Origin: an uncultured Candidatus Saccharibacteria bacterium
Lineage (GTDB): Bacteria > Patescibacteriota > Minisyncoccia > Phycocordibacterales > DSPV01
NCBI GenBank assembly: GCA_964616075.1
Contig: CAZTRA010000001.1
Location: 49,599 to 113,598, forward strand
Direction of reading: 5' to 3'
DNA length: 64,000 nt
The position numbers were made by a program, and so were the translations under genes. Position 1 is the first letter of the stretch; each line of letters starts with the position of its first letter. Below, piece by piece: positions 38,897-58,066 of the stretch. The notes below the pieces were generated by a model. The model was given only the letters and a program-made list of their open reading frames with translations, was not told where the DNA came from and did no database searches.

Positions 38897-38919
38897 AAAT
38901 ATTCGACCACTTCATTTTT

Positions 38920-40372: not shown

Positions 40373-40422
40373 CAACACAGCCCCGCGTACCGGGGTTGTG
40401 TTGTTATATATCAGAATATTTT

Positions 40423-41088
40423 TTAGTACAGAAGAATACGGTCTATAGTAATCGGCTGCACGGGAATATCTCTTGATTTTGTTTTTGATACAGCAATCGC
40501 CATGACGACATCCATACCGCCAATCACCGTACCAAACGCAGTGTGTTTTCCTTGTAGCCACGGAGTAGACTCTGCTGTAATAACAAAAAACTGACTGCCA
40601 TTTGTATCGGGACCACGATTTGCCATTGCTAACACACCCTTTACTAACGGCAGTGAGCTAATTTCATCATCAAACACATATCCAGGACCACCCGTTCCGT
40701 ACACCAACTCATCATCACCCTTAGTCAACGGATCTCCTCCTTGAATCATGAAGTCTTTAATAACCCGATGAAACTTTGTTCCGTCATAAAAACCATTTTC
40801 AACTAACGTAACAAAATTTCGTATAGTGGTTGTTGCGTGTCCCGAAAGAAAGGAAACCGTAAAAGTACCTTTGCTTGTTACAAACTTCGCATTGTTATAT
40901 TGCCTCACTACTGCTTGCATAGAAAAAAAATGTTCTTCATAACTCTCAGCAATAAGTAATGCTTTATTTGCCATATAAAATACAAGAGCAGAAAAAACGG
41001 TCAACCCTAACAAAATAAGGGCTGATACATTCCGATCAAAACGCCGATTTAATACAGCGTAAATACTTTGATTACTTACCATAGACAC
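40423..41088 (-). CDS. membrane-anchored cyclophilin-type peptidyl-prolyl cis-trans isomerase
   Basis: [18 protein letters not shown] ... GTGG cyclophilin signature; N-terminal TM. Confidence 0.85.
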
Positions 41089-41328
41089 TATGCACGAACG
41101 CCGAATGAACTATCAAAATCCTCATACTGAATAACAAGTAAATCATTATTAAATTTCGTGTAGAGACCCGCAACCGCAATAGTTAACGCGAGCAAAAAAA
41201 GCGCAGACTCATTTGTGCCGAAGCGATACAAAAACAGTCTTTTAAAATTTTTATCTTTCATACCTCAATCGTATAAAACTAGTAAAAACTACATTGGTAG
41301 TATACCCCACATCATAACTGGTTTACGA

Positions 41329-41706
41329 TCATTTTCTCCACAAGCCTTTAACCATTGCTTTTACCACGGCCGCCCCACGCCGAGCCAACGCAATACGCTT
41401 GCCCTTATGACGAGCAAGTTCATTCACTAGTTGATCTTTAGCATCATCAATGGCTGCATGTAAATCCTCTTGTTCCGAAACCGAACGAAAATGTTTCCCT
41501 TCAATATGCACGTTCAATTCAGCTCGGAACACAAAACCACTACGATGATGCTCGGTTGTACGACCAACCTCCACGTCAATAAGGACTGCATCAGGTTCTG
41601 CAAATATAAACTTTTCAATACTATCTAATCGACGACGCAAATATTCAGCAGATTCGGCAGGAAGCGTCATGTCAGTCACTTTTATATTAGTTCTCATACG
41701 CTTCAT
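41329..41706 (-). CDS. hpf: ribosome hibernation promoting factor (HPF/RaiA family)
   Basis: IKVTDMTLP..SAEYLRRRLDSIEKF and the later beta-alpha pattern typical of sigma54-modulation/HPF proteins. Confidence 0.7.
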   Translation of the reverse strand: MKRMRTNIKVTDMTLPAESAEYLRRRLDSIEKFIFAEPDAVLIDVEVGRTTEHHRSGFVFRAELNVHIEGKHFRSVSEQEDLHAAIDDAKDQLVNELARHKGKRIALARRGAAVVKAMVKGLWRK

Positions 41707-41765
41707 TATAACGCCAACAAAAATATAATACGAGCAAAAACAATTCTTACATACGCATATACATG

Positions 41766-43040
41766 TCACCGTATACGGGCAATATCACGCGGAAAAAAAA
41801 GATTAATAGTCCACTCTGTAGCAACACGAAAACGCTTTCTCCAGGAAGGAAAATTAAACAAATACACTGTTCGCCAAAACCACCACGCACTTTTACCGTA
41901 AAAACGAATACCAAGTACATCCGCAGCAGCATTCCATTGACCTAATGAAAGTAACAATCCTTTAATTCGATACGAGAATGTCGGCAAAGTTTTACCAAAA
42001 TATATTGCCTCTATTGATGAAGCGACTACTTTTGCCTGACGTACTGCAACTTGTGCAAGACTAGGCAGCGGACGATCGTCATGCTGCCCTCCATAAGAAG
42101 CGGCAACGTCACCAATAGCGAAGATACGCTCAACACCTTGTACCCGTAAAGACTGGTCAACCCTAATACGACCATCTTTACTTTTTTGTATAGCACCAAG
42201 AATAGGAGGCAGTGCTGGTATGACTCCAGCACTCCATACAACAAGTGACGCCGGGAGCATATGTGTATCATCTAAAACTACCATATGGTCTTTTATAGAA
42301 GACACTGGTAATCCAAGCATGAGACGAATTCCTTTTTTCCGTAACACGTCCACAACATATTCACGCACAGTTGGATGAAACTGCGATACAACATCGACAC
42401 TACTACCCACAAGTGTTATTGAGACATCATCACTCTGTATACCCGCATCTTTAAAATAGGCACATAAGGCAATACGAGTAAAGTCAGCAATCTCTGCAAC
42501 CGTTTCAACACCAGTCGGGCCCGCGCCAACAACAACAAATGAAAGTGCTTTCTTTCGCTCATGTCGAGTCGGTAGAGCAACAGCTTTTTCAAATTGTTCG
42601 ATGAGCGCATTACGAATCGTGCGTGCATCGGCAAGACTTTTTAACATATGTACCCATGTCGCTGCATGAGCAACAAAAGAAGGTACGTACGTGCTCGCGC
42701 CTGTAGCTACGACGACATAATCGTACGAATACGTTCCACGTTCTCCGTATACCACACGATCATTTACACCAATCCGCACTACTTGATCCTCAACCACAGA
42801 TACTCCAGTGCCACGCAAAACTTCTCTCAATGGCTCAACAACACTCTCGGGAGATAAGCCGCCTGTCGCAACTTCATGTAAAAGTGGTGTAAACAAAAAA
42901 TGATTTTCTCTGCTAATGAGCGTAACAGTAACAAAGCCTCTCCGAATTAACGGCACGAGATACTTTGCTGTATATACACCACCAAACCCACCACCAACAA
43001 TAACAATACGAAGAGGTATCTTTGTATTACGTGTTCTCAC
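41766..43040 (-). CDS. ndh: type II NADH dehydrogenase (NDH-2)
   Basis: two dinucleotide-binding motifs (IVIVGGGFGGVYTA; FVVVGAGPTGVE). Confidence 0.8.
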   Translation of the reverse strand: MRTRNTKIPLRIVIVGGGFGGVYTAKYLVPLIRRGFVTVTLISRENHFLFTPLLHEVATGGLSPESVVEPLREVLRGTGVSVVEDQVVRIGVNDRVVYGERGTYSYDYVVVATGASTYVPSFVAHAATWVHMLKSLADARTIRNALIEQFEKAVALPTRHERKKALSFVVVGAGPTGVETVAEIADFTRIALCAYFKDAGIQSDDVSITLVGSSVDVVSQFHPTVREYVVDVLRKKGIRLMLGLPVSSIKDHMVVLDDTHMLPASLVVWSAGVIPALPPILGAIQKSKDGRIRVDQSLRVQGVERIFAIGDVAASYGGQHDDRPLPSLAQVAVRQAKVVASSIEAIYFGKTLPTFSYRIKGLLLSLGQWNAAADVLGIRFYGKSAWWFWRTVYLFNFPSWRKRFRVATEWTINLFFPRDIARIR

Positions 43041-46034: not shown

Positions 46035-46190
46035 AACCAGTTTCAATTTGAATTGTTCAGAAGAGCTACTATTTTAAGGCATGAAACTACTTCCACCGAA
46101 CTCACATTCAGCCGTCAGGACAAACCCTGCGGACTTACCAAAAACTTCTTTACACTCAATCGCTTTAGGTGCTTTCTAGCCACCCAGAAA
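46035..46190 (-). pseudogene. decayed fragment paralogous to the PhnB/VOC-family gene at 47544..48050
   Basis: about 150 nt of clear nucleotide similarity to 47770-47940; frame disrupted by stops. Confidence 0.45.
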
Positions 46191-47543: not shown

Positions 47544-48050
47544 CTATTGGCCGGCTTTTTTGATTTTTTCAAGATCAATTTTCTTCATTGGCATAAATGC
47601 CGTAGTGACTGCGTCTGCTTTTTGAGGATCTCGCATCATTTCATCCAGAATTCTTGGAACCACTTGCCACGTAACGCCAAATTTATCTTTGCACCATCCG
47701 CACTGTTCAGCTTCAGGCACCGCTGAAAGTTTCTCCCAGAAGAAATCAATTTCTTCTTGTGTTTCGCATTCAATGATAAACGAGGTAGACCCATTAAGTT
47801 TGAACTGCTCAAACGGGCCGCCGTTTAAAGCCATAAAGCTACTTCCATCGAGCTCACATTCAGCTGTCAGAACAGACCCCTCGGGCCTACCGGACACTTC
47901 TTTAAATTCAGGAGCTTTAGGCGCTCTCGTAATATCGCCAAGTGTCGCTTCATGATGACCAGGAGCTGATCTAAACGTATCTACATAATATCGTACTGCC
48001 TCTTCTCCATCATTATTAATAAACCAGATGCACGTAATTAATTTGCTCAT
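47544..48050 (-). CDS. PhnB-like / VOC (glyoxalase-fold) family protein
   Basis: MSKLITCIWFINNDGEEAV ... FGVTWQVVP pattern typical of the PhnB/3-demethylubiquinone methyltransferase-like DUF. Confidence 0.65.
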   Translation of the reverse strand: MSKLITCIWFINNDGEEAVRYYVDTFRSAPGHHEATLGDITRAPKAPEFKEVSGRPEGSVLTAECELDGSSFMALNGGPFEQFKLNGSTSFIIECETQEEIDFFWEKLSAVPEAEQCGWCKDKFGVTWQVVPRILDEMMRDPQKADAVTTAFMPMKKIDLEKIKKAGQ

Positions 48051-48188: not shown

Positions 48189-48836
48189 CTAATTTGTAAG
48201 TTTATTCCATATAAAATCAATATGAGGATTCTCTTTCCATAATTCTAAAATTTGATTTCTCAATTCTTGATGTTGAGGGTATCCAGTATCTTCAATACCT
48301 TCTGGTAATAAGTGATTACACTCTATATTAAGTAAAACAGTTAAAGCTTCTTTAATATCATTATATTTTTCTGGGCCAATTCTTTCTTGTTCATCTGCTC
48401 CAAACTTATACCAAGTATAGAAGTGCCACAATTCGTGCATGACTGTTTGCAATGCAGAGTTATTAGACAAGCAAACAAAAAATAAATTCTCTTTTAAGGA
48501 ATAAGGACATCTGTTATTGATTGTTAGATATACTGTAATATCTTCTAGTAGAGATACTCCAAAAACTTTCTCTGCAATATTTTGAAATTCATCCGAAATA
48601 TCTTCAAAATCTTTTTGATACTCTTTAATTCTTTTATTTATATCAATCTTGTTGTCTGCGATATATGTATCTATAAATTTAGAAGTAGACCTTTCATCAG
48701 GATTTTTTCCTGCAAAGTTAATTAGTTGTTCATATGCTTTTGTTGGATTGGGAGAGTTATTAGAGCTTTTACCTTTATTTAACAAACACCAAATATCCTC
48801 ATCTTTTTTGTAAGTAAAATTTAATTGCATATACAA
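48189..48836 (-). CDS. hypothetical HExxH-motif protein on a markedly AT-rich segment
   Basis: VMHELWHFY; GC visibly lower than neighbours. Confidence 0.45.
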   Translation of the reverse strand: MYMQLNFTYKKDEDIWCLLNKGKSSNNSPNPTKAYEQLINFAGKNPDERSTSKFIDTYIADNKIDINKRIKEYQKDFEDISDEFQNIAEKVFGVSLLEDITVYLTINNRCPYSLKENLFFVCLSNNSALQTVMHELWHFYTWYKFGADEQERIGPEKYNDIKEALTVLLNIECNHLLPEGIEDTGYPQHQELRNQILELWKENPHIDFIWNKLTN

Positions 48837-48961
48837 ATTTTATCAAGAAAAGAAAGATAAAAACACTTTACTTTGCCTTACTTTACATTGGCTCCGCTTG
48901 TTGGATACGTTCAAAACTATTAACTGGGTGCGAGTGCAGATGGAATTGAGTGGGTTGAGTT

Positions 48962-48998
48962 TTATATAAAAGAAAACCCGCCTTCAGACGACGGGTTT
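48962..48998 (-). terminator. rho-independent terminator for 49020..49439
   Basis: aaacccg ... cgggttt with a T-rich run on minus. Confidence 0.45.
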
Positions 48999-49019
48999 CG
49001 TGTCTGGAAGCGGGTCAAA

Positions 49020-49439
49020 CTAATTCTTGATGGCACCGACCACTACTTGAGTTGCCCTTCTGATGGCATTGTAGGTAGCGTTGCGTTTGGCGGCATTGAT
49101 AAGCGACATACCAACCTTTGCGGGCAGGTACATGTCATGCCTAACCAACGTGGCGAGCCAGTGGACGGGGCCAACTGAAGTTCCACCATAGGAACAGCCG
49201 TCACGTATAACCGGCGTGTACTTTCCTTGGTCGTCTATTTCATCTTCAAGAACAACAAACGGATATGCTTTGTTCATGTCCTCCGGGCTCAAACATTGTT
49301 TCCCCTTGAGCTCCAGAATGTTATTCACTGCCTCCACCACCTCCGTTGCCCTGTGCCAACCCCAGGTGCTTTCTCTCGGGTAATCCGGGATGTAGAACCT
49401 GTAGATTGGAGGCATTACCATCTTAGACTGATGCGTCAT
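49020..49439 (-). CDS. hypothetical protein
   Basis: ORF with own terminator. Confidence 0.5.
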   Translation of the reverse strand: MTHQSKMVMPPIYRFYIPDYPRESTWGWHRATEVVEAVNNILELKGKQCLSPEDMNKAYPFVVLEDEIDDQGKYTPVIRDGCSYGGTSVGPVHWLATLVRHDMYLPAKVGMSLINAAKRNATYNAIRRATQVVVGAIKN

Positions 49440-49516: not shown

Positions 49517-49565
49517 CATAGCAGAGAAAAGCCAAGGGTTGGCTCCTCTCTGCCATGACGAATAT
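49517..49565. other. compound hairpin (13-bp outer stem with 1 mismatch enclosing an inner 6-bp stem-loop)
   Basis: cgtcatagcagag aaa agccaa ggg ttggct cct ctctgccatgacg. Confidence 0.4.
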
Positions 49566-49627
49566 ATCAAGGTTCCAATCCGATATAATAATAACATACT
49601 ATAAGGTATGTTGTCAACTGCTAGCTC

Positions 49628-49695
49628 CGGTGGATTACTAAGGATGTTTATCACAAAAAGCATCACAAGAGTACCAAGACCAAATACAAACTACT
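49628..49695 (+). repeat. left copy of about 70-bp imperfect direct repeat bounding the island (lies in a recombinase-like 3' fragment ...WITKDVYHKKH...)
   Basis: cggtggattactaaggatgtttatCacaaaaagcatcaCaagagtaccaagac... matches 57660-57756. Confidence 0.7.
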
Positions 49696-49748
49696 GAAAA
49701 CAGAAAACCGCCATCTCACGACAGTGGGTAACTGTGTTGAGATGGTGG

Positions 49749-49898
49749 TCAAGGATGGGTTGTAAGTATGATCCCACAAACGCCTCCAATCAAGGCAATC
49801 AGACCGAGAACGGTGTTGGTAATAGGGGTTTTTGATTTCACTGACCCTCCTACCATACAAGCTCCGATCAATATGCAAGCTAAGGCGACATATTTCAT
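49749..49898 (-). CDS. candidate 49-aa small hydrophobic protein (MKYVALACILIGACMVGGSVKS...) at the island edge
   Basis: ORF found by reading the minus strand; no good SD; speculative. Confidence 0.2.
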   Translation of the reverse strand: MKYVALACILIGACMVGGSVKSKTPITNTVLGLIALIGGVCGIILTTHP

Positions 49899-50086
49899 TA
49901 GTATAATTTGGTGTATTGTTTTGGCACACCTGGGTTCCTCCTGAAACCACTAGCCGTGTAAAAGAACATGTTAACATACTAACACGCTATATATATTTAG
50001 TCAAATTTGCTCCACATCGTGAACGAAGTTATAACCTATTTTAAGACCACGGATCAATACCATTACATCCCGAGTTTTAACTAAAA

Positions 50087-52903
50087 CTACTCAGAGATAC
50101 GGTATTTCAACTGGCGCTGCTTAAATGCCTCAGACCCTCCCTCTAAGACTTTTATTGCATGGGTGTATATTTCAGGATTTTCAATAGACCCAGCATTGTA
50201 AGAAATCTCCCCATCTTTTCTATTAGCAATGATTATTTGCTCAGAATCACTATTAATAACCACATTACCGTTATTTGAGGCAAGAATAACCTGTCTGTAT
50301 TGCTTTGCTTGTCTAATAGCCTTCACAAGTTCATCCATAATAAATTCGTTATCAAGGTGATCGTCGTGAGAATCAATAATAATAGGTTTATCTCCCTGGG
50401 CAAGATAGATTTTCATAAGTACTGTAGCCTTTTGTCCGAGTGAGAGTTTCTGTAATTGAGTACCCTTATATTTAACAGTGGGCGCAACGGAATAATAATC
50501 TCCGTAAACAAGATCATAAAATGACGTAGTGGAAATACCTTGTGAATTTTTTATCTTGTCTTTGTAGTCTGAAACAACTGAGTTGTTTTGTTTGATAATT
50601 TCACCTATTTTTTTATCATCTCCATTTACATATTCCTGATTAATTGAAAACAGACTTGCAAAAATTGACTCCTCGTCTTTTGAATGAGAAACTTTTACTT
50701 TTCTCTGATCGAGAATATCTTCCGCACCTTGTTCAAACTTTGATTGGTTGTAATTAATTTTTGCGCTAAAACTTAAATCACTAAGCACGTCATCTTTGTT
50801 AGTTGAAAAGACTGAGATAATTTCCTCATACTTTTTCTTAAGTAGAAATGTGTCATTCAATAATTTTGAGTAAAGGTCCTCTCTGTTTTTCAGTTCTTTT
50901 TTAAGAGTTTCCTGATCCTTGTTTAAGTCGGCTTCTTTCTTTTCAAGTTTTACTAAGTCCTGAGCAAGTTCTTTTTGTTTATCCAATAATTTAGCGTGAT
51001 TTTTTACACCAACCTCTAAGGACTCAATATCTTTTTGAGCCTTTTCTAGTTCTTTAACTATTTTTGTGAGTTCTGTTTGTATTTCTGTGCTAATACTTCC
51101 AAGGTCATCCTTACTACTATAAGCAAGTGCGGATAACTGTTTTTTATTACCATGTTTCTTTAATAAAGCATTGATTGAATCTACTGTGGTATTGAATACC
51201 ACTAGATCATTCGATACAAAATCCGCAGCATCCCTTAAATAACCCTGAATACTTAACAACTCATCCTTCTTTTCTTTGAGCCTAGTAACTATCCCTTGTT
51301 TACTTTGTGCTACTAGTTTGTTTTCAAGAGTTTGTGCTTTTTCTGATTCCACAACTCTATTAGAAATATCCTTAATTTCTGCCTCAAGTTTATTTTTATC
51401 TGCGAGAACTGATTTTGTATTGGTTGCACTCGTAGATTCTTCAAGTTTTGCTATCAGTGCATTTTTTTGTTTAATACTCTTTTTACTAAGAGTTATCTCG
51501 CTTTGTAGTTGCTCAAACTCAAAACTTTTCTCTGTATCTTTTATTACAGGACTATCAAAAATAAGGCTATTAATGTAGTCATCCAAATCTGAGTCATCGC
51601 TAATATATTCCTCAAGTTCACCTTGGGCTATGTAGACAACTTCACTATGTTCAAAAAAATTTCCATCAGTTAGTTTTTTTGAAAAAGTTGTTCCGTCTTT
51701 GAACGTGAGTTCAACCTCGATGTCTGGGGTCTGATCAGATGTTATTCTCCTTACAAAAGAATTTGGGTCTTTAATGTTGGACCTATCTTTGTAACAATTT
51801 GCTAGTAAATCAACAAAAGCAGTTTTTCCGCTCCCTTTTCCTCCAGTAACAGATACTAGTGCGGGATTTAGTTCAATTTCAGTTGCATTTATTTTTAACT
51901 CACTCCCAATCACAGAATCACTAATTTTGATTTTCTGAATAGTATAATTACTTTTTACTGGAGTAGGGTCTTTTTCTTGAATTTTAACTCGGTCAGCAGG
52001 CTCATATGATAATTGTTTTAGTCCATCAAAAGTTGGGTCCGATTTAATCCAACAAAAGCGCATATCGCAATTAAGTGGTGTCTTTGTGCAATCATGACTT
52101 GTCTTGCCTCGATTTGCACAAGGTTTACAGATACTTTCAAGATCATGTGAATCAGATCCATGAATACACGCCTTAAGGCTTCCATACTTCCTTTTGATTT
52201 CGTCGACTGAGTCAGTGCCATTACCTAAAAAATAATCTCTATCTGATGGATTTCCCGATAGAATGAAATGAGACAACCTGTAAATCTCTTCGCGAGTAGC
52301 AGCCATACTGGAATGCTGGATTCCCGAATTACCATCATTACTGTTATTTGAGACAGCCAAAACTACGTTTTCTGCTAGACGTTTATCTTGTAGTATTTCT
52401 CTTAACTGATTGTGGCTGGTTTTGAATTGTTCAACACCTGCCTTATATGCAGCAACATCGTCTAAGGTTTGATCATTTTTGTAAGCCTTACCCAGGCTTA
52501 TCAAATCAGACTTAATACATTTGTATTTTTGTGCTTTGTAATTGTATTCCAAACTTGAGAATAATTTTGATTCCAACTCATTAACAATTTCAGGGTTTAT
52601 TATTAAATGAATGTTGATAGGTTTTTCAGTTGATGTAACTGGTAATATCCTAAGTTCGACATTTGGAACAATTAAATCAAAATTAGTGAGTTTTCCTTCG
52701 GTAATCACTTTTTGATATCCCTCAATTGAAAAGTAGTCAGTTATTCCAATTACGGACACACCTGTAATTGTTTTTAATTTTGCAAAAAAGTTGGTCCATT
52801 TTTCTTCCGTGGTCGCACCCTCAAACAAAGTATTATTTAATACTGATGCTGGACTGTGTACGTGTAGGTCCCATTTTCTCCAAATTGATCCTTGTGTCGA
52901 CAT
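50087..52903 (-). CDS. PHP-domain phosphoesterase fused to SbcC/Rad50-like coiled-coil ABC ATPase (938 aa); fourth gene of the defence operon
   Basis: N-terminal WRKWDLHVHSPAS PHP motif I; Walker A VTGGKGSGKTAFVDLL; about 300-aa K/E/L-rich coiled-coil; ABC signature-like LSLGQKATVL; Walker B / D-loop PIIIDSHDDHLD. Confidence 0.75.
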   Translation of the reverse strand: MSTQGSIWRKWDLHVHSPASVLNNTLFEGATTEEKWTNFFAKLKTITGVSVIGITDYFSIEGYQKVITEGKLTNFDLIVPNVELRILPVTSTEKPINIHLIINPEIVNELESKLFSSLEYNYKAQKYKCIKSDLISLGKAYKNDQTLDDVAAYKAGVEQFKTSHNQLREILQDKRLAENVVLAVSNNSNDGNSGIQHSSMAATREEIYRLSHFILSGNPSDRDYFLGNGTDSVDEIKRKYGSLKACIHGSDSHDLESICKPCANRGKTSHDCTKTPLNCDMRFCWIKSDPTFDGLKQLSYEPADRVKIQEKDPTPVKSNYTIQKIKISDSVIGSELKINATEIELNPALVSVTGGKGSGKTAFVDLLANCYKDRSNIKDPNSFVRRITSDQTPDIEVELTFKDGTTFSKKLTDGNFFEHSEVVYIAQGELEEYISDDSDLDDYINSLIFDSPVIKDTEKSFEFEQLQSEITLSKKSIKQKNALIAKLEESTSATNTKSVLADKNKLEAEIKDISNRVVESEKAQTLENKLVAQSKQGIVTRLKEKKDELLSIQGYLRDAADFVSNDLVVFNTTVDSINALLKKHGNKKQLSALAYSSKDDLGSISTEIQTELTKIVKELEKAQKDIESLEVGVKNHAKLLDKQKELAQDLVKLEKKEADLNKDQETLKKELKNREDLYSKLLNDTFLLKKKYEEIISVFSTNKDDVLSDLSFSAKINYNQSKFEQGAEDILDQRKVKVSHSKDEESIFASLFSINQEYVNGDDKKIGEIIKQNNSVVSDYKDKIKNSQGISTTSFYDLVYGDYYSVAPTVKYKGTQLQKLSLGQKATVLMKIYLAQGDKPIIIDSHDDHLDNEFIMDELVKAIRQAKQYRQVILASNNGNVVINSDSEQIIIANRKDGEISYNAGSIENPEIYTHAIKVLEGGSEAFKQRQLKYRISE

Positions 52904-52906
52904 AAA

Positions 52907-55588
52907 TTAATTCGATAGTTTACTTGCAAATGTTTGATAACTATCGACCTCTTGGTAGTTAACATGAATCACTTCAAAGTGTTTCTTTGCTGATTCTATT
53001 TTTGCTTTTTCGGTTGGGCGTAAGTTGTTTACGTCGCCCTTTGTTTCAACAACAAAGTAAACCTTTTCACTTTCATTGCCTTTAAGATCACGCTTTGCAG
53101 TAACAATAGCCCAGTCAGGATTGTAGCCACCAACAGGTGTCTCAACTTTGTACCAGTTAGGCATTTTAATAAACAATTTAATACGCTCGTCTTGCTCGAG
53201 GTTCAATGCAAAGTTCTTTTCAACGTCAGAGTCGTGAACAATAGCATCATAAATGGACCGAGTAACTGCCAAAGTAGAGTCCTTATAACTTTCAAGTGCT
53301 TTGAATTCTTCTGCCTTGTAAGCATCAGAAATAACCTCATAACTTACTTGCTCAACGTAAGTCTTTACGAGTTCTTGTTTTATGATTTTACTAGCCTCAA
53401 CTACAAAGCGATCAGGGTTGTTAAAGAAAGCCTCCCAGTTATTTGCCTCAAGAACAATTTCAGCGATTGTAGAGCGAGTGAGTCGGGTATGTGCCTTGAT
53501 TTCAGAAATACAATCCATCGTTCGAGTTTGTGTTGCCCCCGTGTCGCCTGATTCAGCCCCCAGGACGAGAGATTTGATACCTTTCGCAGAGATATCGATA
53601 CCTGCACGCTCAACACGAATGTGGGGCTTTTGTAGCCGAATTTCAGATATAGCCTTTGCGGAGTTGGTTATAAGCGACTCGGTGTTTACTTTTACGAGGT
53701 AACGAGTCTTCTTTGAAATGCGGCCCCACAACTCTTTGAAGTTCTCGTCTTTTTGGAATCCAGGCTTGAGTGCGATCTTACTTCGCTGTTTTGCATTGTG
53801 AGGTAATTGAGGTGTTTTGTAGATACCATCCTCTTGGAATTCTGCTTGTAGGCTTGCAACGTAGTCGGCATAACTTATGTTTGCAACCACTGAAAGCAAA
53901 TTGATTCGTCTATCAAAAATACGATCACCTTCTTGATTAACACAAAGACGCATACCACGACCAATCTCTTGGCGCTTTTTCATTGAGGAAGTTGTCTCAT
54001 TCAAAGTACAGATATTAAACACGTTCGGATTGTCCCAACCTTCACGGAGTGCAGAGTGAGAGAAAATAAATTCAACAGGTTCAGAGAAAGACAAAAGACG
54101 CTCCTTATCTTTCATAATAAGTTCATAAGCCTCGTCATTCTTTTCAATAGCAGAGTCTTGCTCAACAAAACTACCGTCTTTCTTTTTTGCAAAGTATCCA
54201 GTGTGAAGTGAGTCGATAGAATTTTGCCCCAGGGCAAATTCATTTTTAACTCTTGATAACTCCTCGGTAAATATCTTGCGTATCATTCCATCCGCACCAG
54301 CATAATTTGCAACCTTATCGATAAAGAAAAGGCTCAAGACTTTAATATCAAAATCCTTGTGCTTTTGTTTTTTCTCAATGTGAAGTCTGATAGTCTCAGA
54401 TATTTGTCTACGCCAAATATCCTCCTTGTTTTGATTAATAGCAGTTCCTCGAGAAAGAATAAAACCATTGGTAAAGTGAACCTTGCCCTCAGCGCCAAAC
54501 TCAGGTGCGTCCGCATCGATATTTGAAACCACATAGCCGTCATAGGCTTTGTTACCCGTAAGTTCAGATAGGTTGTCGTTCTTTTTTACATTGGTTGCTT
54601 TTACCTTTCTATTTCCATCGCTATCCATAAAAGCGAGTTCAACTTTTGCTTTAATACCACTGGCAGTCTTTGCTGGTTTTGCCTCAACAAAAACCATGTG
54701 AGGGACCGAAGTACCACTATCGTCATCAGTTACTGAAAAGACTTCTATTTTTTTAACAAGCCCAAGTTGGTAAGCATCGTAAGGTGTGAGTTGGTGTACA
54801 AGGTTGTATGGATTCTTGTGAGTAGCAGAATAGCGGAGGCGGAATAGTGCATTGAAATTCTCAAGCGCTTTTCTTGTAGCATCACCTTCCATATTTTGTG
54901 GCTCGTCGAGGATAAGAATAGGGTTTGTCTTTTTAATAAACTCAATTGGTTGTTCACCCTGCATTTGATCACGAGCACCATAAAGAACGTTAGCGTCTTT
55001 GTTAAAAGCACCAACGGTCATAACCATGATATTTATCACGCTACTGTCGGCAAAGTGTCGAACCTGGGTGATATTTTTTGATTTGTATTCGTAAAATCTG
55101 AAAGGAGTGTTTGCATACAATTCTTTGAAGTGGTCCTCGGTGATTTTCAGGGTCTTAATAACACCCTCGCGAATAGCAACAGACGGGACTAAAATAATAA
55201 ACTTTTTCCAGCCGTACTTTTGATTGAGTTCAAAAATGGTACGCAAGTAAACATACGTTTTACCTGTACCCGTTTCCATTTCAACTGAGATGTCTTTCCA
55301 TCCTACATACTCGCCATTAAAAGTATAATCAGGGTCGTCATAAGTAACTCCTGGTTCGTTGAATTTAATACTGCTTTTTATTTCCTCTAAGTTGTTTTGA
55401 GATTTAATTCTTTTGATATTTTCTTTTACTTCCTCAGGGGACAAAGTAAGTACATTTGGATAGATACCAAACAATCCCAAACCAGCCACAGTCTGTGCTG
55501 TAGTTTTTTCTTGTCCCTCAAAACAATCAACCACTGAGTTGACTGCTTGAAGTTGGTATTCTTGATTTGGATCAAACTTAAATTTCAT
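52907..55588 (-). CDS. res: Type III restriction enzyme Res-like subunit (SF2 helicase plus C-terminal PD..ExK endonuclease)
   Basis: helicase motif I TGTGKTYVY, motif II LILDEPQNM; C-terminal YNPDWAIV ... FVVETKG. Confidence 0.85.
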   Translation of the reverse strand: MKFKFDPNQEYQLQAVNSVVDCFEGQEKTTAQTVAGLGLFGIYPNVLTLSPEEVKENIKRIKSQNNLEEIKSSIKFNEPGVTYDDPDYTFNGEYVGWKDISVEMETGTGKTYVYLRTIFELNQKYGWKKFIILVPSVAIREGVIKTLKITEDHFKELYANTPFRFYEYKSKNITQVRHFADSSVINIMVMTVGAFNKDANVLYGARDQMQGEQPIEFIKKTNPILILDEPQNMEGDATRKALENFNALFRLRYSATHKNPYNLVHQLTPYDAYQLGLVKKIEVFSVTDDDSGTSVPHMVFVEAKPAKTASGIKAKVELAFMDSDGNRKVKATNVKKNDNLSELTGNKAYDGYVVSNIDADAPEFGAEGKVHFTNGFILSRGTAINQNKEDIWRRQISETIRLHIEKKQKHKDFDIKVLSLFFIDKVANYAGADGMIRKIFTEELSRVKNEFALGQNSIDSLHTGYFAKKKDGSFVEQDSAIEKNDEAYELIMKDKERLLSFSEPVEFIFSHSALREGWDNPNVFNICTLNETTSSMKKRQEIGRGMRLCVNQEGDRIFDRRINLLSVVANISYADYVASLQAEFQEDGIYKTPQLPHNAKQRSKIALKPGFQKDENFKELWGRISKKTRYLVKVNTESLITNSAKAISEIRLQKPHIRVERAGIDISAKGIKSLVLGAESGDTGATQTRTMDCISEIKAHTRLTRSTIAEIVLEANNWEAFFNNPDRFVVEASKIIKQELVKTYVEQVSYEVISDAYKAEEFKALESYKDSTLAVTRSIYDAIVHDSDVEKNFALNLEQDERIKLFIKMPNWYKVETPVGGYNPDWAIVTAKRDLKGNESEKVYFVVETKGDVNNLRPTEKAKIESAKKHFEVIHVNYQEVDSYQTFASKLSN

Positions 55589-55593
55589 AATTG

Positions 55594-57378
55594 TTAAATT
55601 GTTTTCAAATCAAGGTTAAGGGACAGATTGGCGGCAGTAGTGTCGTCGAGACTACTCTCGAGACAAATAAATAATTTACCTTTGTGAGACTTATCAGTAA
55701 GTTCTTTTACAGTTTCAGACGCAAGTTTATTTTCAAGACAAACAAGTAATTGCTGTTCGCCGTCGGATACTTTGTGAACTTTATTTTTGCCGATAGTAAT
55801 TGTTTCGACTTTACTATTTAGCGACAAGCCTTCTTTAACGATATTTTCATAAACAACATTCATATCGTCCTCTTTATCAAAAAGTTGGCTTTGCTTTGCT
55901 TTATGTAAGTAAGCAACAAATGCTTGCTGGTTTTCTTCGGATGATTTCTCGGGATTAAATACAAAAGTATTTTCAGGATAGTTTGATTCAGAGAGTGTAA
56001 ACACTTTGAATCCCGCATCAATAGGCTGAGGATTCTCGCCATAACCTTTTATTACACGTCGAATACGCTCTTTTGCAATATCAGCAATAGTTTTGTATCC
56101 AGCATTAAATCCGTCGGATCCTTCTTCGAGTTTTTCAGGAAGTTGCACACAAATAAATTTTCTATTGCCACCATCTTCTTGATTTTGTTTGAAAACAGCA
56201 TGAGCAGTTGTACCAGAGCCCGCAAAGAAATCTAAGATAATATCTTCTTGATTTGTTGATATTTTTAGCATTTCTTGAATATAAGGAATTGGTTTCGGGG
56301 TATCGAAAATTATTCCACCGAAAATAGATTTAATCTCATCGGATGCATTTGCGGCGTTTGAGGTATTATCCCAAATTGTCTCAGGAATTTTTCCCTTATT
56401 TTCGTCGATAAACAACTTACGGTAGAGATTATCTCCTCTAACAATAAGTTTATTTTCATTGTCTAATTTTTGTAAATTTTCTTTACTGAACAACCAAAGT
56501 CTTTCCTTAAAGTATTGTCCTTCTTTATTTGTAAAATCATATTTAACACCACCTTGAGTTCCTCTAGCCCAAACGGCAAGCATTCTGTAATCGCCTCTAG
56601 GATCGTTGTCGGGGTTCTTGTAAGCCTCCTTTGTCCCTTCATCAAGATCAAGATAATTTGTATTGAATTGTTGCAGGTCTTTAGCAAAGACCAATAAGTA
56701 CTCGTGTGATTTACTAAACCATCTCGCAGAATTATCACGCCCACGTTTTCTTTTCCAAATAACATTTGCAACAAAATTTTCTTCACCAAAAATCTCATCA
56801 AGTACTAGTCTTAAATTATGAACCTCATTATCGTCGATAGATACAAAAATAGCCCCATCTTCACGAAGTAAATTCCAAGCCAATTTAAGACGAGGATACA
56901 TCATAGAAAGCCAGTCGCTATGGTAACGCCCATTGGTTTCTTTGTTTGTGGTAGTACTTTCACCAGCCTCAGTTTTTTGACCTGTTTGCTTTAAGTAGTT
57001 ATCAAGAGGGGCGCTAAAATTATCGTTGTATACAAAATCATGACCCGTGTTATAAGGCGGATCAATGTAAATCATTTTCACTTTCTCAAAGTAAGCCTTT
57101 TGTAAAAGTTTCAAAACTTCTAAGTTATCGCCCTCAATAAAAAGGTTTTCGGATTCATCCCATTTAATGCTTTGCTTAGGTTCAGGATTGAGAGTTAGTT
57201 TGCTAGGGACCAACACACTTTTAATAGCGTTACTTTTACCAGCCCAAGTAAAAGAAAACTTATCAGACAAATTGACTGCCTGTGAACTTAAATCCTCTAT
57301 GTATTTTTGTAAGTTCAAAGACTTCTCAAAGAGTGAGTCATCCGATGTTAAATTAATTTTTGTGGGTTTTTTATTCAT
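55594..57378 (-). CDS. mod: Type III Mod-like N6-adenine DNA methyltransferase (beta class: motif IV before motif I)
   Basis: IYIDPPYNTG (motif IV DPPY) at about residue 95-105; FFAGSGTTAHAV (motif I) at about residue 380. Confidence 0.9.
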   Translation of the reverse strand: MNKKPTKINLTSDDSLFEKSLNLQKYIEDLSSQAVNLSDKFSFTWAGKSNAIKSVLVPSKLTLNPEPKQSIKWDESENLFIEGDNLEVLKLLQKAYFEKVKMIYIDPPYNTGHDFVYNDNFSAPLDNYLKQTGQKTEAGESTTTNKETNGRYHSDWLSMMYPRLKLAWNLLREDGAIFVSIDDNEVHNLRLVLDEIFGEENFVANVIWKRKRGRDNSARWFSKSHEYLLVFAKDLQQFNTNYLDLDEGTKEAYKNPDNDPRGDYRMLAVWARGTQGGVKYDFTNKEGQYFKERLWLFSKENLQKLDNENKLIVRGDNLYRKLFIDENKGKIPETIWDNTSNAANASDEIKSIFGGIIFDTPKPIPYIQEMLKISTNQEDIILDFFAGSGTTAHAVFKQNQEDGGNRKFICVQLPEKLEEGSDGFNAGYKTIADIAKERIRRVIKGYGENPQPIDAGFKVFTLSESNYPENTFVFNPEKSSEENQQAFVAYLHKAKQSQLFDKEDDMNVVYENIVKEGLSLNSKVETITIGKNKVHKVSDGEQQLLVCLENKLASETVKELTDKSHKGKLFICLESSLDDTTAANLSLNLDLKTI

Positions 57379-57380
57379 AA

Positions 57381-57578
57381 TTATTTCTTCTTTTTCTTAG
57401 GAGGCTTTACATTAGAGGATTGCTCAAGGAACTGTCGCAGGTCGTCCTCGCTTATTCGCCAATATCCGACCTTTGAGGCTTTTAATTTGCCGTCGTGAAT
57501 GTAGCGAAAGATAGACCTTTCACTGACACGTAACGCTTCGGCTACTTCTTTAACGCTGAGAAATTTTGTGTTAGTCAT
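57381..57578 (-). CDS. excisionase-family helix-turn-helix DNA-binding protein (65 aa, Lys-rich tail); first gene of the operon, possible controller
   Basis: LSVKEVAEALRVSERSIFRYIHDGKLKASKVG.WRI matches the excisionase/MerR-like HTH pattern. Confidence 0.8.
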   Translation of the reverse strand: MTNTKFLSVKEVAEALRVSERSIFRYIHDGKLKASKVGYWRISEDDLRQFLEQSSNVKPPKKKKK

Positions 57579-57598
57579 AATTATTTTCTCCTTTTTAC

Positions 57599-57627
57599 AT
57601 TTTACTCCTTCAAAAACCCTGTGTCAA
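57599..57627 (-). promoter_or_regulatory. sigma70-like promoter TTGACA-17-TAAAAT with RBS AAGGAG for the HTH-mod-res-ATPase operon
   Basis: minus-strand ttgaca cagggtttttgaaggag taaaat gtaaaaaggagaaaataatt ATG. Confidence 0.55.
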
Positions 57628-57636
57628 AGTGTGTCA
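57620..57636. promoter_or_regulatory. direct repeat TGTGTCA-n3-TGTGTCA overlapping the -35, a candidate operator
   Basis: read directly. Confidence 0.3.
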
Positions 57637-57659
57637 TGTTGTTTCTTGATTAAATTATA

Positions 57660-57756
57660 CGGTGGATTACTAAGGATGTTTATGACAAAAAGCATCAATT
57701 ACTAAGGATGTTTATGACAAAAAGCATCAAGAGTATCAGGACAAAATACAGGTACT
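57660..57756 (+). repeat. right copy of the island-bounding direct repeat, containing a perfect 32-bp tandem duplication (57667-57698 / 57699-57730)
   Basis: ttactaaggatgtttatgacaaaaagcatcaa x2; matches 49628-49695. Confidence 0.8.
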
Positions 57757-57946
57757 TAAAATTGAACTTTCGGAACACAGAAAAGCAGACTACGATTACC
57801 AAACAACCATTGCTACAGTCATTTCCGTAGCACGCAGAGCAAGAAGTATGTTTGATAACAGTTCTAAACCTGCTGAAAAAAGAGCGTTCTTGAACTACCT
57901 ACTTCAGAACCCGACTATAAACGGAAAAAGCTATATTTTTCAATAG
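57662..57946 (+). pseudogene. 3' fragment of a recombinase-like gene (frame broken by the 32-bp duplication; no start codon)
   Basis: translation ...YDKKHQEYQDKIQVLKIELSEHRKADYDYQTTIATVISVARRARSMFDNSSKPAEKRAFLNYLLQNPTINGKSYIFQ* resembles the C-terminal tail of large serine recombinases; identity is inferred. Confidence 0.35.
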
Positions 57947-57990
57947 CTTCTCCGTTCAATCTGGTACTAGAACTAGCTGGTTGTCCTAAC

Positions 57991-58066
57991 TGGCTCCGCG
58001 GCCTGGGCTCGAACCAGGGACCCTCCCGTTAACAGCGGGACGCTCTACCGACTGAGCTACCGCGGA
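57991..58066 (-). tRNA. tRNA-Asn (anticodon GUU), CCA encoded
   Basis: manual cloverleaf: acceptor TCCGCGG/CCGCGGA, anticodon stem TCCCG/CGGGA with loop CTGTTAA, T-arm CCTGG TTCGAGC CCAGG, 3' GCCA. Confidence 0.85.

What the first reader, a model, noticed from the sequence alone, without database searches (positions are those of the whole stretch)
49628..58066. tRNA-Asn-linked island bounded by ~70-bp direct repeats inside recombinase-like 3' fragments, with a 32-bp tandem duplication
The sequence cggtggattactaaggatgtttat[C/G]acaaaaagcatca...agagta.ca.gac.aaatacaa..tact occurs at 49628-49695 and at 57660-57756.

The right copy has a perfect 32-bp tandem duplication. It continues in-frame into a 78-codon ORF tail, ...EKRAFLNYLLQNPTINGKSYIFQ*, that resembles the C-terminal end of large serine recombinases. 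It lies 45 bp from tRNA-Asn. The left copy encodes a diverged version of the same peptide start (WITKDVYHKKH...).

The repeats enclose the low-GC defence operon and no intact integrase. This looks like a decayed integrative island or two successive insertions at a recombinase-3'-end att site. That explains how the defence operon arrived and marks its exact borders.
Basis: partly seen in the sequence, partly recalled or inferred. Interest (0 to 1): 0.6.

Follow-up and report, generated by a model that had tools for sequence, protein, structure and literature searches.

The report
Decayed recombinase elements stacked at tRNA-Asn
The two repeats are the identical starting points of two broken recombinase gene tails left by small mobile elements that piled up next to a tRNA-Asn gene in a Patescibacteria genome; all such tails break at one conserved DNA site inside the recombinase gene, by a mechanism not yet identified.

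Summary
The 38-nt repeat (37/38 identical), the perfect 32-bp tandem duplication and the recombinase-like tail beside tRNA-Asn are all present.

The tail is about 95% identical to the 3' end of an intact 513-aa large serine recombinase (LSR) in a near relative. It is a pseudogene with three defects: 5' truncation, the duplication, and a 1-nt deletion.

The repeats are not att duplications made by one insertion, and they do not mark the island's borders. They are the 5' ends of two independently truncated LSR fragments from different lineages.

This LSR belongs to 6-9.5 kb elements (Rep_trans-like protein, HTH, cargo, LSR) that integrate at the tRNA-Asn 3' end. Their attP lies inside the LSR's own 3' end.

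Among 79 related genomic loci, about 36 carry only the tail, cut at exactly the same nucleotide (GGWGR|ATTACTAAGG). That site shows zero synonymous variation in intact genes.

The type III R-M + TrlF island really runs from a natural attL core (50009-50013) to the tRNA. It is 86% identical to an element elsewhere, and that homology ends exactly at the truncation point.

The enzyme that makes the recurrent break is not identified. Candidates are the Rep_trans nickase and the LSR itself.

The parts
48889..48935 (+). Older att-like site: core TGGCTCC followed by a P'-type arm (GCTTGTTGGATACGTTCAAAAC). Left boundary of an older unit that carries the 139-aa ORF at 49020-49439.
   Evidence: Pattern search; resembles the P' arms of L013 and L026.
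49540..49633 (+). Degenerate remnants of earlier units ('frag0'). Core-like TTGGCTCC at 49540. A decayed LSR-3'-end/P-arm plus core, GTTGTCAACTGCTAGCTCC, with GCTCC at 49624-49628. Then GGTGG, the left partner of the left truncation junction.
   Evidence: Alignment A9 with the window attR, L037 and L001 sites; blastn to the L037 flank.
49634..49705 (+). Left repeat copy ('frag1'): the first ~72 nt of an LSR 3' fragment starting at the family-wide breakpoint. L001-like lineage, with a 2-nt insertion after +32. Homology is lost after about +75.
   Evidence: 91.5% identity to L001 10067-10123.
49709..49897 (-). Small membrane-protein ORF (49748-49897, 49 aa, MKYVALACILIG...) with a terminator-like hairpin (49709-49745). 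Filler between frag1 and the next att site.
   Evidence: Read directly from the sequence. Not tested further.
49995..50036 (+). Natural attL of the R-M unit: P-like arm TTAGTCAAATTT, core GCTCC (50009-50013), P' arm ACATCGTGAACGAAGTTATAACC. This is the true left border of the defence island.
   Evidence: Homology to L088 starts at 50009, and the sequences differ beyond the core. Aligns with the L012 LSR-end + P' arm and with L001 array sites.
50087..52903 (-). TrlF-family AAA-like ATPase, 938 aa.
   Evidence: NCBIfam NF045780, E=8.8e-150, above cutoff; PADLOC Ppl-like C-terminus.
52907..55588 (-). Type III restriction endonuclease Res, 893 aa.
   Evidence: Pfam ResIII and RE_endonuc; PADLOC REase_III, E=1.9e-234.
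55594..57378 (-). Type III methyltransferase Mod, 594 aa.
   Evidence: Pfam N6_N4_Mtase; PADLOC MTase_III, E=6.9e-171.
57381..57578 (-). HTH_17 / excisionase-family DNA-binding protein, 65 aa, mad1-like. It belongs to the cassette and is also present in L088 and L089.
   Evidence: It is 43-45% identical to the backbone HTH_17 of intact elements.
57660..57665 (+). CGGTGG: the last bases of the R-M cassette, and the left partner (X') of the truncation junction. The break lies between 57665 and 57666.
   Evidence: L088 and L089 read ...TATACGGTGG|GGTTATAATT, whereas the window reads ...TATACGGTGG|ATTACTAAGG.
57666..57729 (+). Two perfect tandem copies of the first 32 nt of the LSR fragment (ATTACTAAGGATGTTTATGACAAAAAGCATCA). 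The duplication begins exactly at the family-wide breakpoint.
57698..57993 (+). 'frag2': a pseudogene of LSR codons ~403-504, about 95% identical to the intact L085 LSR. A 1-nt deletion in the A-run at 57925-57929 creates the TAG at 57944-57946. The last codon, TGG, is the tRNA's CCA end.
57991..58066 (-). tRNA-Asn(GTT). Its 3' end (antisense TGGCTCC, 57991-57997) is the attR/attB core of the element family.

Best explanation
The locus is the tRNA-proximal end of an accretion array, and the parts of this account differ in how well they are supported.

Shown:
- Small integrative elements of Paceibacteria integrate at the 3' end of tRNA-Asn. Their backbone is a ~339-aa ORF, a Rep_trans-like protein, a small HTH_17 protein, variable cargo and a ~500-aa LSR.
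- Integration is presumably catalysed by the LSR. The attP lies inside the LSR's own 3' end, with core GCTCC, so integration swaps the last ~30 codons for antisense tRNA.

Inferred from att-like cores at 48889, 49540, 49624, 50009 and 57993:
- Several such units landed one after another in this genome. Each new arrival pushed the older ones away from the tRNA.

Shown:
- The two 'direct repeats' are the 5' ends of two LSR tails from different lineages.
- Each was truncated at the same nucleotide, one that is a breakpoint across the whole family (GGWGR|ATTACTAAGG).
- The defence island runs from its own attL (50009) to the tRNA. It has lost everything between the HTH promoter and LSR codon ~403, so it is now immobile cargo.

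Inferred:
- The breakpoint sits in a ~27-nt DNA site that is conserved independently of the protein code.
- A site-specific strand-breaking and joining enzyme of the elements cuts there and joins the 3' side to upstream pseudo-sites ending in GGWGR, deleting the mobility genes.
- My preferred candidate is the Rep_trans-like nickase, acting as in rolling-circle-origin illegitimate recombination. That would also explain a tandem duplication starting exactly at the cut. The LSR itself is the main alternative.
For: LSR identity:
- Full-length homologues carry Resolvase, Recombinase and Zn_ribbon_recom domains.
- The window tail is about 95% identical to L085.

Family anatomy:
- There are 79 GTDB loci, all Patescibacteria, and the tail nearly always abuts tRNA-Asn.
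- attL is GCTCC plus a 110-nt piece that encodes the true LSR C-terminus.
- The backbone Rep-HTH_17-cargo-LSR is present in all intact loci.

Recurrent break:
- 42 loci were classed full-length by an open frame of more than 250 codons upstream of the breakpoint.
- About 36 junctions are cut at the identical nucleotide.
- Flanks are random beyond -6, but positions -5, -4 and -2 are G in 28, 33 and 36 of 38.
- The pattern was replicated in 115 distinct metagenome fragments: 108 have an xGx codon before ITK.

Left partners that could be identified:
- Inside LSR(N) in L063, a 263-nt deletion.
- Inside the rep-like gene in L059.
- Inside attL P' arms in L037, L082 and the window's left copy.
- At the cassette end in the window's right copy.

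DNA-level constraint:
- Codons CAG AGT ATT ACT AAG ... TAT GAC show about zero synonymous entropy in 40 genes, against a gene mean of 0.69.
- No comparable trough occurs in the rep gene.

Island borders:
- L088 7965-15623 matches window 57665-50009 at 86% identity.
- Searches confirm the ends.

Rep_trans assignment:
- Pfam PF02486, E=3e-6, for P0297.
- UniRef names P0285 'Replication initiation protein'.
- Four of the five motifs listed in PMC5714925 are visible in the invariant columns of A5.
- Strand-transfer activity of Rep_trans/MOBT enzymes is documented in PMC9371924.
Against: The enzyme is not established:
- The Rep_trans assignment is sub-threshold (27.3 bits against a cutoff of 29.6).
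- The canonical Rep_trans nic is CT'AA in the loop of a GC-rich hairpin (PMC9371924). The site does contain ACT|AAG, but the breakpoint lies 6 nt upstream.
- No significant hairpin is present.

Points favouring the LSR instead:
- The right half of the site resembles the natural P' half-site. Compare ATTA-CTAAGG-AC-ATCTAT-GAC with CCCT-TTAGTGG-AC-AAGTTCA-GAAC.

Other weaknesses:
- Both window junctions share the same 6-mer, CGGTGG. The flank matrix gives this about 1.5% probability for independent events, which hints at some dependence between the two copies.
- The order of events (accretion, then deletions) is reconstructed, not observed.
- The window comes from a metagenome-assembled genome.
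Confidence: 0.7

Rival explanations
1. The 8-kb island is one element that inserted by site-specific or Campbell-type recombination into a 'recombinase-3'-end att site'. A circle carrying the 32-38-nt core recombined with the resident LSR tail, so the two repeats are attL and attR and give the exact borders.
For: - The two copies are 37/38 identical, and both share the rare GATGTT variant and the flank CGGTGG.
- Homology of the left copy continues in register with the LSR tail, as expected if a circle carried its own diverged copy.
- L032 also has two fragment copies 4.3 kb apart.
Against: - The cassette shared with L088 and L089 ends at an attL core at 50009, not at the left repeat.
- The 310 nt between the left repeat and that attL are unrelated filler.
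- The first 32 nt are identical in unrelated lineages (L001, L085), so their identity needs no crossover.
- 34 other fragment loci have a single copy.
- In L088 the bases CGGTGG are native cassette sequence, followed by other DNA.
Confidence: 0.12
2. The accretion-and-truncation history is the same, but the enzyme at the hot spot is the LSR itself. The conserved site would be a pseudo (or second) att half-site inside the LSR gene. LSR-mediated recombination with upstream pseudo-sites would then delete the LSR N-terminus, a self-inactivating 'suicidal' reaction.
For: - The constrained 27 nt match the architecture of the natural P' half-site: a cut, 4 nt, YTARGG, AC, 6-7 nt, then GA(A)C.
- A top-strand break immediately 3' of a dinucleotide fits serine-recombinase chemistry (established knowledge).
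- Natural B arms of this family are also unconserved.
- Several left partners lie inside P' arms.
Against: - The two bases left of the break are G then A/G/T/C in the products, but GT in all 40 native genes. A shared central dinucleotide, which serine recombinases require, is therefore not seen.
- Constraint is asymmetric: 6 nt to the left of the break and 21 nt to the right.
- No mirrored half-site appears in the left flanks.
- This model does not explain the 32-bp tandem duplication.
- attL x pseudo-site deletion without a directionality factor would be unusual at this frequency.
Confidence: 0.25
3. The conserved ~100-aa tail is a domesticated functional small protein, for example a coiled-coil fragment that blocks incoming recombinases. 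It would be kept by selection, and the common start point would reflect what selection retains rather than where an enzyme cuts.
For: - Hundreds of fragment ORFs remain open and are 65-84% identical in protein.
- The flank motif GGWGR looks like a Shine-Dalgarno sequence.
Against: - There is no conserved start codon, and the motif abuts ATT with zero spacing.
- N-termini are unrelated junk of 0-210 residues.
- The boundary is precise to the nucleotide, which selection on a protein would not require.
- The window copy is broken by a 32-nt duplication and a 1-nt deletion.
- Conservation is explained by recent descent from mobile intact genes.
Confidence: 0.05
4. Assembly artefact. The metagenome assembler joined unrelated contigs at the conserved 32-38-nt core and created the tandem duplication.
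For: - The window comes from a metagenome assembly, GCA_013565695.1.
- The core is conserved among co-occurring elements.
Against: - A 38-nt repeat is shorter than the usual final k-mers.
- The junction types (X'|Y) recur in 36 genomes from many studies and assemblers.
- Three contigs on record carry the flanking DedA gene; one place was shown and two similar places were not shown.
- Flanking synteny is coherent.
Confidence: 0.04

Closest known systems
Integrative and mobilizable elements / integrative plasmids that combine a Rep_trans (MOBT-type) nickase with a serine recombinase (Firmicutes IMEs; reviews PMC5704250, PMC5714925), and tRNA-integrating RCR elements such as pSAM2 (PMC2440964)
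   Same: - Small elements of under 10 kb.
- A Rep_trans-like initiator or relaxase plus a site-specific recombinase plus cargo.
- Integration next to a conserved gene's 3' end.
- Accumulation of decayed copies.
   Different: - The host is Patescibacteria.
- The recombinase is an LSR that targets a tRNA 3' end, which is usually the domain of tyrosine integrases.
- attP lies inside the LSR ORF.
- No conjugation genes were seen.
- My searches found no description of these elements.
SSV-type 'suicidal' integrases of archaea (attP inside the integrase ORF; PMC7253208, PMC8371274)
   Same: - The recombination site lies within the integrase's own reading frame.
- The target is a tRNA gene.
- Integration alters the integrase gene and leaves integrase fragments beside tRNAs.
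   Different: - Those are tyrosine recombinases, split into N and C pseudogenes by integration itself.
- Here an LSR only exchanges its last ~30 codons on integration.
- The large 5' truncation happens at a second, different intragenic site.
Illegitimate recombination at rolling-circle origins, and DSO-bounded gene mobilisation in RC plasmids (PMC5037232; the classical M13/pC194 work is cited from my own knowledge)
   Same: - One recombination end is fixed at a specific nucleotide of a conserved origin-like site.
- The other end falls at variable sites that share only a few bases 5' of the cut.
- Cargo modules end exactly at that nucleotide.
   Different: - The site lacks the canonical CT'AA-in-GC-hairpin architecture of Rep_trans origins.
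- It lies in the recombinase gene.
- Nicking has not been shown.
Site-specific accretion (tandem CIME/ICE arrays) and integron cassette arrays
   Same: - Successive integrations at one att site build tandem arrays of units separated by att-like sites.
- Many units lack their own recombinase.
- In L001, ten repeats flank single-gene units.
   Different: - The recombinase is a serine enzyme, not a tyrosine one.
- There is no attC folding or Pc promoter.
- In the window the array is short and eroded.

Membership tests
Large serine recombinase (the window tail as a gene fragment of one) | Resolvase catalytic domain + Recombinase domain + zinc ribbon in the same protein | tested here: not met
   The window holds only codons ~403-504, and tblastn finds no N-terminal part. 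The intact homologue L006 has all three domains by Pfam hmmscan; precomputed Pfam lists Resolvase and Recombinase for the L085 LSR. The window copy is therefore a pseudogene fragment, not a recombinase.
Large serine recombinase (the window tail as a gene fragment of one) | Sequence continuity with the C-terminal region of bona fide LSRs | tested here: met
   About 95% nt identity to L085 6222-6535; 90% aa identity to L006 residues 402-483.
tRNA-linked integrative island bounded by att direct repeats | Flanking direct repeats derived from the att core / tRNA 3' end | tested here: not met
The 38-nt repeat has no similarity to the tRNA, and no second copy of the tRNA 3' end longer than 7 nt exists in the window.
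tRNA-linked integrative island bounded by att direct repeats | attL and attR sharing the family core, with a P' arm at the far end | tested here: met
   GCTCC + P' arm at 50009-50036 and TGGCTCC at 57991-57997. The P' arm aligns with family attL sites.
tRNA-linked integrative island bounded by att direct repeats | A functional integrase within the island | tested here: not met
   Only a triply damaged 3' fragment remains.
Rep_trans (PF02486) rolling-circle initiators (the element family's 376-aa protein) | Match to the family profile above the curated threshold | tested here: inconclusive
   One member reaches 27.3 bits (E=3e-6) against a cutoff of 29.6; three others give nothing. A profile search against PDB sequences found no hit.
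Rep_trans (PF02486) rolling-circle initiators (the element family's 376-aa protein) | Catalytic motifs N'(D), I (RxD), II (S/TxYxG), III (YxKxxE), IV (W/LxRxE), as listed in PMC5714925 | tested here: inconclusive
   Invariant D3, S168-x-Y170, Y181-x-K183-x-x-D186 and R221-x-E223 are present. Motif I was not recognised. The motifs were matched by eye, not by alignment to solved Reps.
Rep_trans (PF02486) rolling-circle initiators (the element family's 376-aa protein) | Origin with a CT'AA nick in the loop of a GC-rich hairpin | tested here: not met
   No conserved hairpin of this kind occurs in nine elements. The hot-spot site contains ACT|AAG but is not in a hairpin.
Type III restriction-modification with TrlF | Mod (N6_N4 MTase), Res (ResIII helicase + endonuclease) and a TrlF ATPase in one operon | tested here: met
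   The same four-gene cassette, with identical protein lengths, occurs in L088.
Integron | Tyrosine IntI, attI, and attC-bounded cassettes | tested here: not met
   No tyrosine recombinase homology was seen for the LSR, and the repeats are tRNA-3'-end-like att sites. The resemblance is only functional.

The most novel reading that the evidence does not exclude
Patescibacterial LSR elements may carry a second, dedicated DNA site inside the recombinase gene. There an element-encoded enzyme (the Rep_trans-like nickase or the LSR) would make a nucleotide-precise cut and rejoin it to upstream GGWGR sites.

That would amount to a built-in, site-specific 'self-grounding' reaction. It would strip the mobility genes, fix the cargo (here a type III R-M/TrlF defence operon) in the host, and leave a reusable tail next to the tRNA.

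Together with recombinase-less single-gene units bounded by mini-att sites (the L001 array), this would form a serine-recombinase counterpart of an integron at tRNA-Asn in CPR bacteria.
Probability: 0.3. Interest if true: 0.8.

Novelty: new variant of a known kind. Interest (0 to 1): 0.6.

Why it matters
CPR/Patescibacteria have tiny genomes, and little is known about how they gain and keep accessory genes such as defence systems. This locus shows a concrete route:

- Small LSR elements target tRNA-Asn.
- They pile up there.
- They are disarmed at one exact nucleotide, which leaves their cargo behind.

The nucleotide-precise, family-wide breakpoint lies in a DNA site conserved beyond its coding role. 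That makes it directly testable in vitro: does the Rep-like protein nick it, or does the LSR recombine it?

The finding also matters for annotation. Hundreds of database 'hypothetical proteins' of 80-147 aa are really these truncated tails read antisense into a tRNA.

Finally, an LSR with a tRNA target and a compact attP inside its own gene could be of interest as a genome-engineering tool.

Tried and rejected
- Tail peptide against Pfam and NCBIfam: no hit. Identity came only from full-length homologues.
- SSV-like model with attP at the ITKD site (intact gene rebuilt on excision): rejected. Intact elements have no second fragment at their left end; their attL is GCTCC plus the true C-terminal tail.
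- A common gene upstream of fragment loci, which would indicate an inserting element: none found.
- Cassette-type repeats (GGAYGWTGTTMGAAC) in the window: none at 2 mismatches or fewer. Looser att-like sites were found later.
- Identifying the 376-aa and 339-aa backbone proteins with Pfam, PHROGs, NCBIfam or PDB sequences: no hits.
- Stable hairpin at the hot spot: z-scores from -0.5 to -1.9, not significant.
- Canonical Rep_trans nic hairpin elsewhere in the elements: none conserved.
- Looking for an empty-site or variant contig through the flanking DedA protein: this returned only the source contig itself.
- Literature searches for these elements in CPR: nothing found.
- The idea that the 135-nt repeat at 46042/47794 belongs to the island: rejected. 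It is a partial duplicate of the PhnB-like gene.

Full report
**1. The observation**

The sequence CGGTGGATTACTAAGGATGTTTAT[C/G]ACAAAAAGCATCA occurs at 49628-49665 and at 57660-57697, with 37 of 38 bases identical. No match appeared in 100 shuffles.

The right copy carries a perfect tandem duplication of 32 nt: 57666-57697 equals 57698-57729. After the core, the two copies stay alignable for about 40 more nt at roughly 72% identity, with a 2-nt indel. tRNA-Asn(GTT) lies at 57991-58066 on the minus strand.

- The 32-nt duplication is not a multiple of three. The 'in-frame' tail is in frame only with the second copy.
- The stop at 57944-57946 results from a 1-nt deletion in an A-run at 57925-57929. 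Without that deletion the reading frame continues as ASPFNLVLELAGCPNW. Its last codon, TGG, is the antisense of the tRNA's CCA end.

**2. What the tail is**

The reconstructed 84-aa peptide found 206 relatives. All of them are short ORFs of 80-147 aa from Parcubacteria/Patescibacteria. Homology in every one begins at the same residues (ITKD), preceded by unrelated N-termini.

A scan of one genome per species returned 79 loci, all Patescibacteria. In 42 of them the frame stays open for more than 250 codons upstream of the breakpoint, so I classed them as full-length genes of about 500 aa.
- The L006 example (504 aa) has Resolvase, Recombinase and Zn_ribbon_recom domains. It is a large serine recombinase (LSR).
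- The window tail is about 95% identical in DNA to the 3' end of the intact 513-aa LSR in L085. That gene sits next to an almost identical tRNA-Asn.

**3. The element family and its real att sites**

Intact loci share a backbone:
- an ORF of about 339 aa,
- a conserved 376-aa protein,
- a small ORF,
- an HTH_17 protein of 59-61 aa,
- variable cargo (type II R-M in L006 and L086, an asparagine-synthase-like gene in L085),
- the LSR, running into the tRNA-Asn 3' end.

The left ends of six elements align as (T/G)GCTCC followed by about 110 conserved nt. Those nt encode LPLVDKFRTxNW..IKxDLxFSG. This is the same extension seen on fragments that are not followed by the tRNA.

From this I conclude that attP lies inside the LSR's own 3' end, with core GCTCC. 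Integration replaces the last ~30 codons with antisense tRNA. The elements are 6-9.5 kb long.

The 376-aa protein is probably a Rep_trans-family nickase, but the evidence is only suggestive.
- One member hits PF02486 at E=3e-6, just under the Pfam threshold.
- UniRef names another member 'Replication initiation protein'.
- Four of the five catalytic motifs listed in PMC5714925 can be seen among the invariant residues.

**4. The recurrent breakpoint**

About 36 loci, and both window copies, lack everything upstream of exactly the same nucleotide, |ATTACTAAGG. Only two truncated loci (L044, L074) break elsewhere.

The flanking sequence is random beyond position -6. Nearer the break it reads G G W G R, with G at -5, -4 and -2 in 28, 33 and 36 of 38 junctions. 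The intact gene reads CAGAGT at those positions.

The motif replicates in 115 distinct metagenome fragments. In 108 of them the codon before ITK has G in its middle position. No gene is shared upstream of the fragments, and no LSR N-terminus lies nearby.

Where the left partner could be identified, it lies in varied places:
- inside the LSR's own N-terminal half in L063, a 263-nt deletion;
- inside the rep-like gene in L059;
- inside attL P' arms in L037, L082 and the window's left copy;
- at the end of the R-M cassette in the window's right copy.

This is the signature of deletions with one fixed end and one variable end.

In 40 intact LSR genes, synonymous codon variation averages 0.69 of its maximum. 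It collapses to about zero over CAG AGT|ATT ACT AAG ... TAT GAC: Ser AGT in 38/38, Ile ATT in 40/40, Thr ACT in 40/40, Tyr TAT in 40/40 and Asp GAC in 40/40. The rep gene shows no comparable trough.

The breakpoint therefore lies in a ~27-nt site that is conserved as DNA, not just as protein code.

**5. Re-reading the window**

*The shared cassette.* The four-gene cassette HTH-Mod-Res-TrlF recurs in L088 and L089, with identical protein lengths in L088. L088 7965-15623 matches window 57665-50009 at 86% nt identity.

*Right end.* L088 reads ...TATACGGTGG|GGTTATAATT..., whereas the window reads ...TATACGGTGG|ATTACTAAGG. So CGGTGG is native cassette DNA, and the junction is a truncation junction.

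*Left end.* Homology stops at GCTCC (50009-50013). Window and L088 share that core and the P' arm ACATCGTGAACGAAGTTATAACC, and they differ beyond it. This site aligns with attL and array sites of the family.

*True extent.* The defence island's real left border is this attL. Its right border is the tRNA.

*The left repeat.* It lies 310 nt outside the island. It is the first ~72 nt of an older LSR fragment from an L001-like lineage (91.5% identity). It is preceded by a degenerate P-arm + core (GTTGTCAACTGCTAGCTCC).

*More att-like cores.* Further cores lie at 48889 and 49540. The locus is a short accretion array.

*Why the repeats match.* The near-identity of the two repeats over +1..+32 needs no crossover. 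Unrelated lineages (L001, L085) have exactly the same 32 nt, which is consistent with the DNA-level constraint.

*What is missing.* No Rep-like gene and no LSR N-terminus exist in the window. The island is immobilised cargo.

**6. Mechanism of the break**

*Shown:* a nucleotide-precise fixed end, a short motif on the variable side only, a constrained DNA site, and a tandem duplication in the window that starts exactly at the same nucleotide.

*Inferred:* a site-specific strand-breaking and joining enzyme acts there. I weighed two candidates.

Candidate 1: the Rep_trans-like nickase.
- The pattern resembles illegitimate recombination at rolling-circle origins, with one end at the nick and the other at sites resembling the 5' side of the nick. 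The classical work is cited from my own knowledge.
- Related ideas for DSO-bounded gene movement are in PMC5037232. Strand-transfer activity of Rep_trans/MOBT enzymes is in PMC9371924.
- A nick at -1|+1, followed by limited strand displacement and rejoining to the 5' end, would produce a duplication starting at +1.
- Against: the canonical CT'AA nick does occur in the site (ACT|AAG) but lies 6 nt downstream of the break. No GC-rich hairpin exists. The Rep assignment itself is weak.

Candidate 2: the LSR.
- The right half of the site mimics the natural P' half-site.
- The products do not keep a common central dinucleotide, and the left flanks show no mirrored half-site.

I rate Rep about 0.4, the LSR about 0.25, and something else for the rest.

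**7. Comparison and novelty**

The closest known systems are:
- Firmicutes IMEs and integrative plasmids that pair Rep_trans proteins with serine recombinases;
- archaeal SSV-type integrases with attP inside their own ORF (PMC7253208);
- site-specific accretion arrays.

The differences here are the host phylum, an LSR aimed at a tRNA 3' end with attP in its own 3' end, and above all the second intragenic site at which the gene is reproducibly truncated.

My literature searches found no description of these elements. I class the finding as a new variant of a known kind. The window itself is a decayed example. The family-wide breakpoint is the interesting and unexplained part.

**8. Caveats**

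- The window comes from a metagenome assembly (GCA_013565695.1).
- The order of events is reconstructed, not observed.
- The shared CGGTGG flank has about a 1.5% chance under the flank matrix. It hints that the two junctions may not be fully independent.

Noticed in passing
L001 10352-19002 (the same contig as L049): Ten direct repeats of about 35 nt (TGCTCTGTCTAGTTGAGGATGTTAGAAC...) spaced 584-1433 bp apart. Each interval holds one small gene (SET, Fic, AHSA1 and others). The array lies between an LSR fragment and tRNA-Asn. Each repeat looks like a mini attP (P-like arm, core, P' arm). This is an integron-like array of recombinase-less units built on a serine-recombinase att site.
   Followed up: partly
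LSR genes of 40 loci, residues ~452-492 (window 57850-57975): A second, broad trough of synonymous variation (0.17-0.44 against a mean of 0.69) covers about 120 nt just upstream of the attP core. That is far longer than a usual LSR half-site. It could be a P arm plus another DNA or RNA element, such as a single-strand origin.
   Followed up: no
window 46042-46176 vs 47794-47928: A 135-nt direct repeat at 75% identity. The copy at 46042 is a pseudogene fragment of the PhnB-like (3-dmu-9_3-mt) gene at 47544-48050.
   Followed up: partly
window 36923-41769 vs L002 10316-16399: In relatives, hpf (S30AE)-fmt-def-priA-mreB directly follows tRNA-Asn. In the window the same block (priA, def, fmt, PPIase, hpf) lies 16 kb away on the other side of the array and is inverted relative to the tRNA. 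This suggests a rearrangement anchored at the tRNA-Asn locus.
   Followed up: no
L088 3577-5250 (minus strand): A different 557-aa LSR, 29% identical to the 504-aa family, also ends by reading antisense into a tRNA-like 3' end (…TTWLGSWDSNPGP). The 'attP inside the LSR 3' end / tRNA target' design is therefore shared by at least two LSR families. The same R-M/TrlF cassette travels with both.
   Followed up: partly
window 57666-57700 and all related loci: An 8-bp inverted repeat, CTTGATGC ... GCATCAAG, brackets the hot-spot site in intact genes, with a spacer of about 47 nt. Its right arm ends at +33, the same point where the 32-nt duplicated unit ends. The predicted hairpin is not significantly stable.
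   Followed up: partly
window 57671-57800: The core contains a good ribosome-binding site followed by an ATG in another frame (TAAGGAtgtttATG). This opens a 38-codon ORF (MTKSIKSIRTKYRY...). In the left copy the ATG is ATC. Whether this alternative-frame ORF is conserved was not tested.
   Followed up: no
database proteins P0001-P0120: Hundreds of predicted 'hypothetical proteins' of 80-147 aa in public collections are these truncated LSR tails. They carry junk N-termini and C-termini translated from the antisense of tRNA genes (…PNWLRGQGSNLRPIA). One carries the JGI name 'aminopeptidase N', which nothing in this tail supports.
   Followed up: partly
window 48189-49439: Two ORFs with no family hits and sharply different GC lie in units bounded by att-like cores: a 215-aa ORF at about 30% GC and a 139-aa ORF at about 50% GC. 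They are probably older captured cargo.
   Followed up: no
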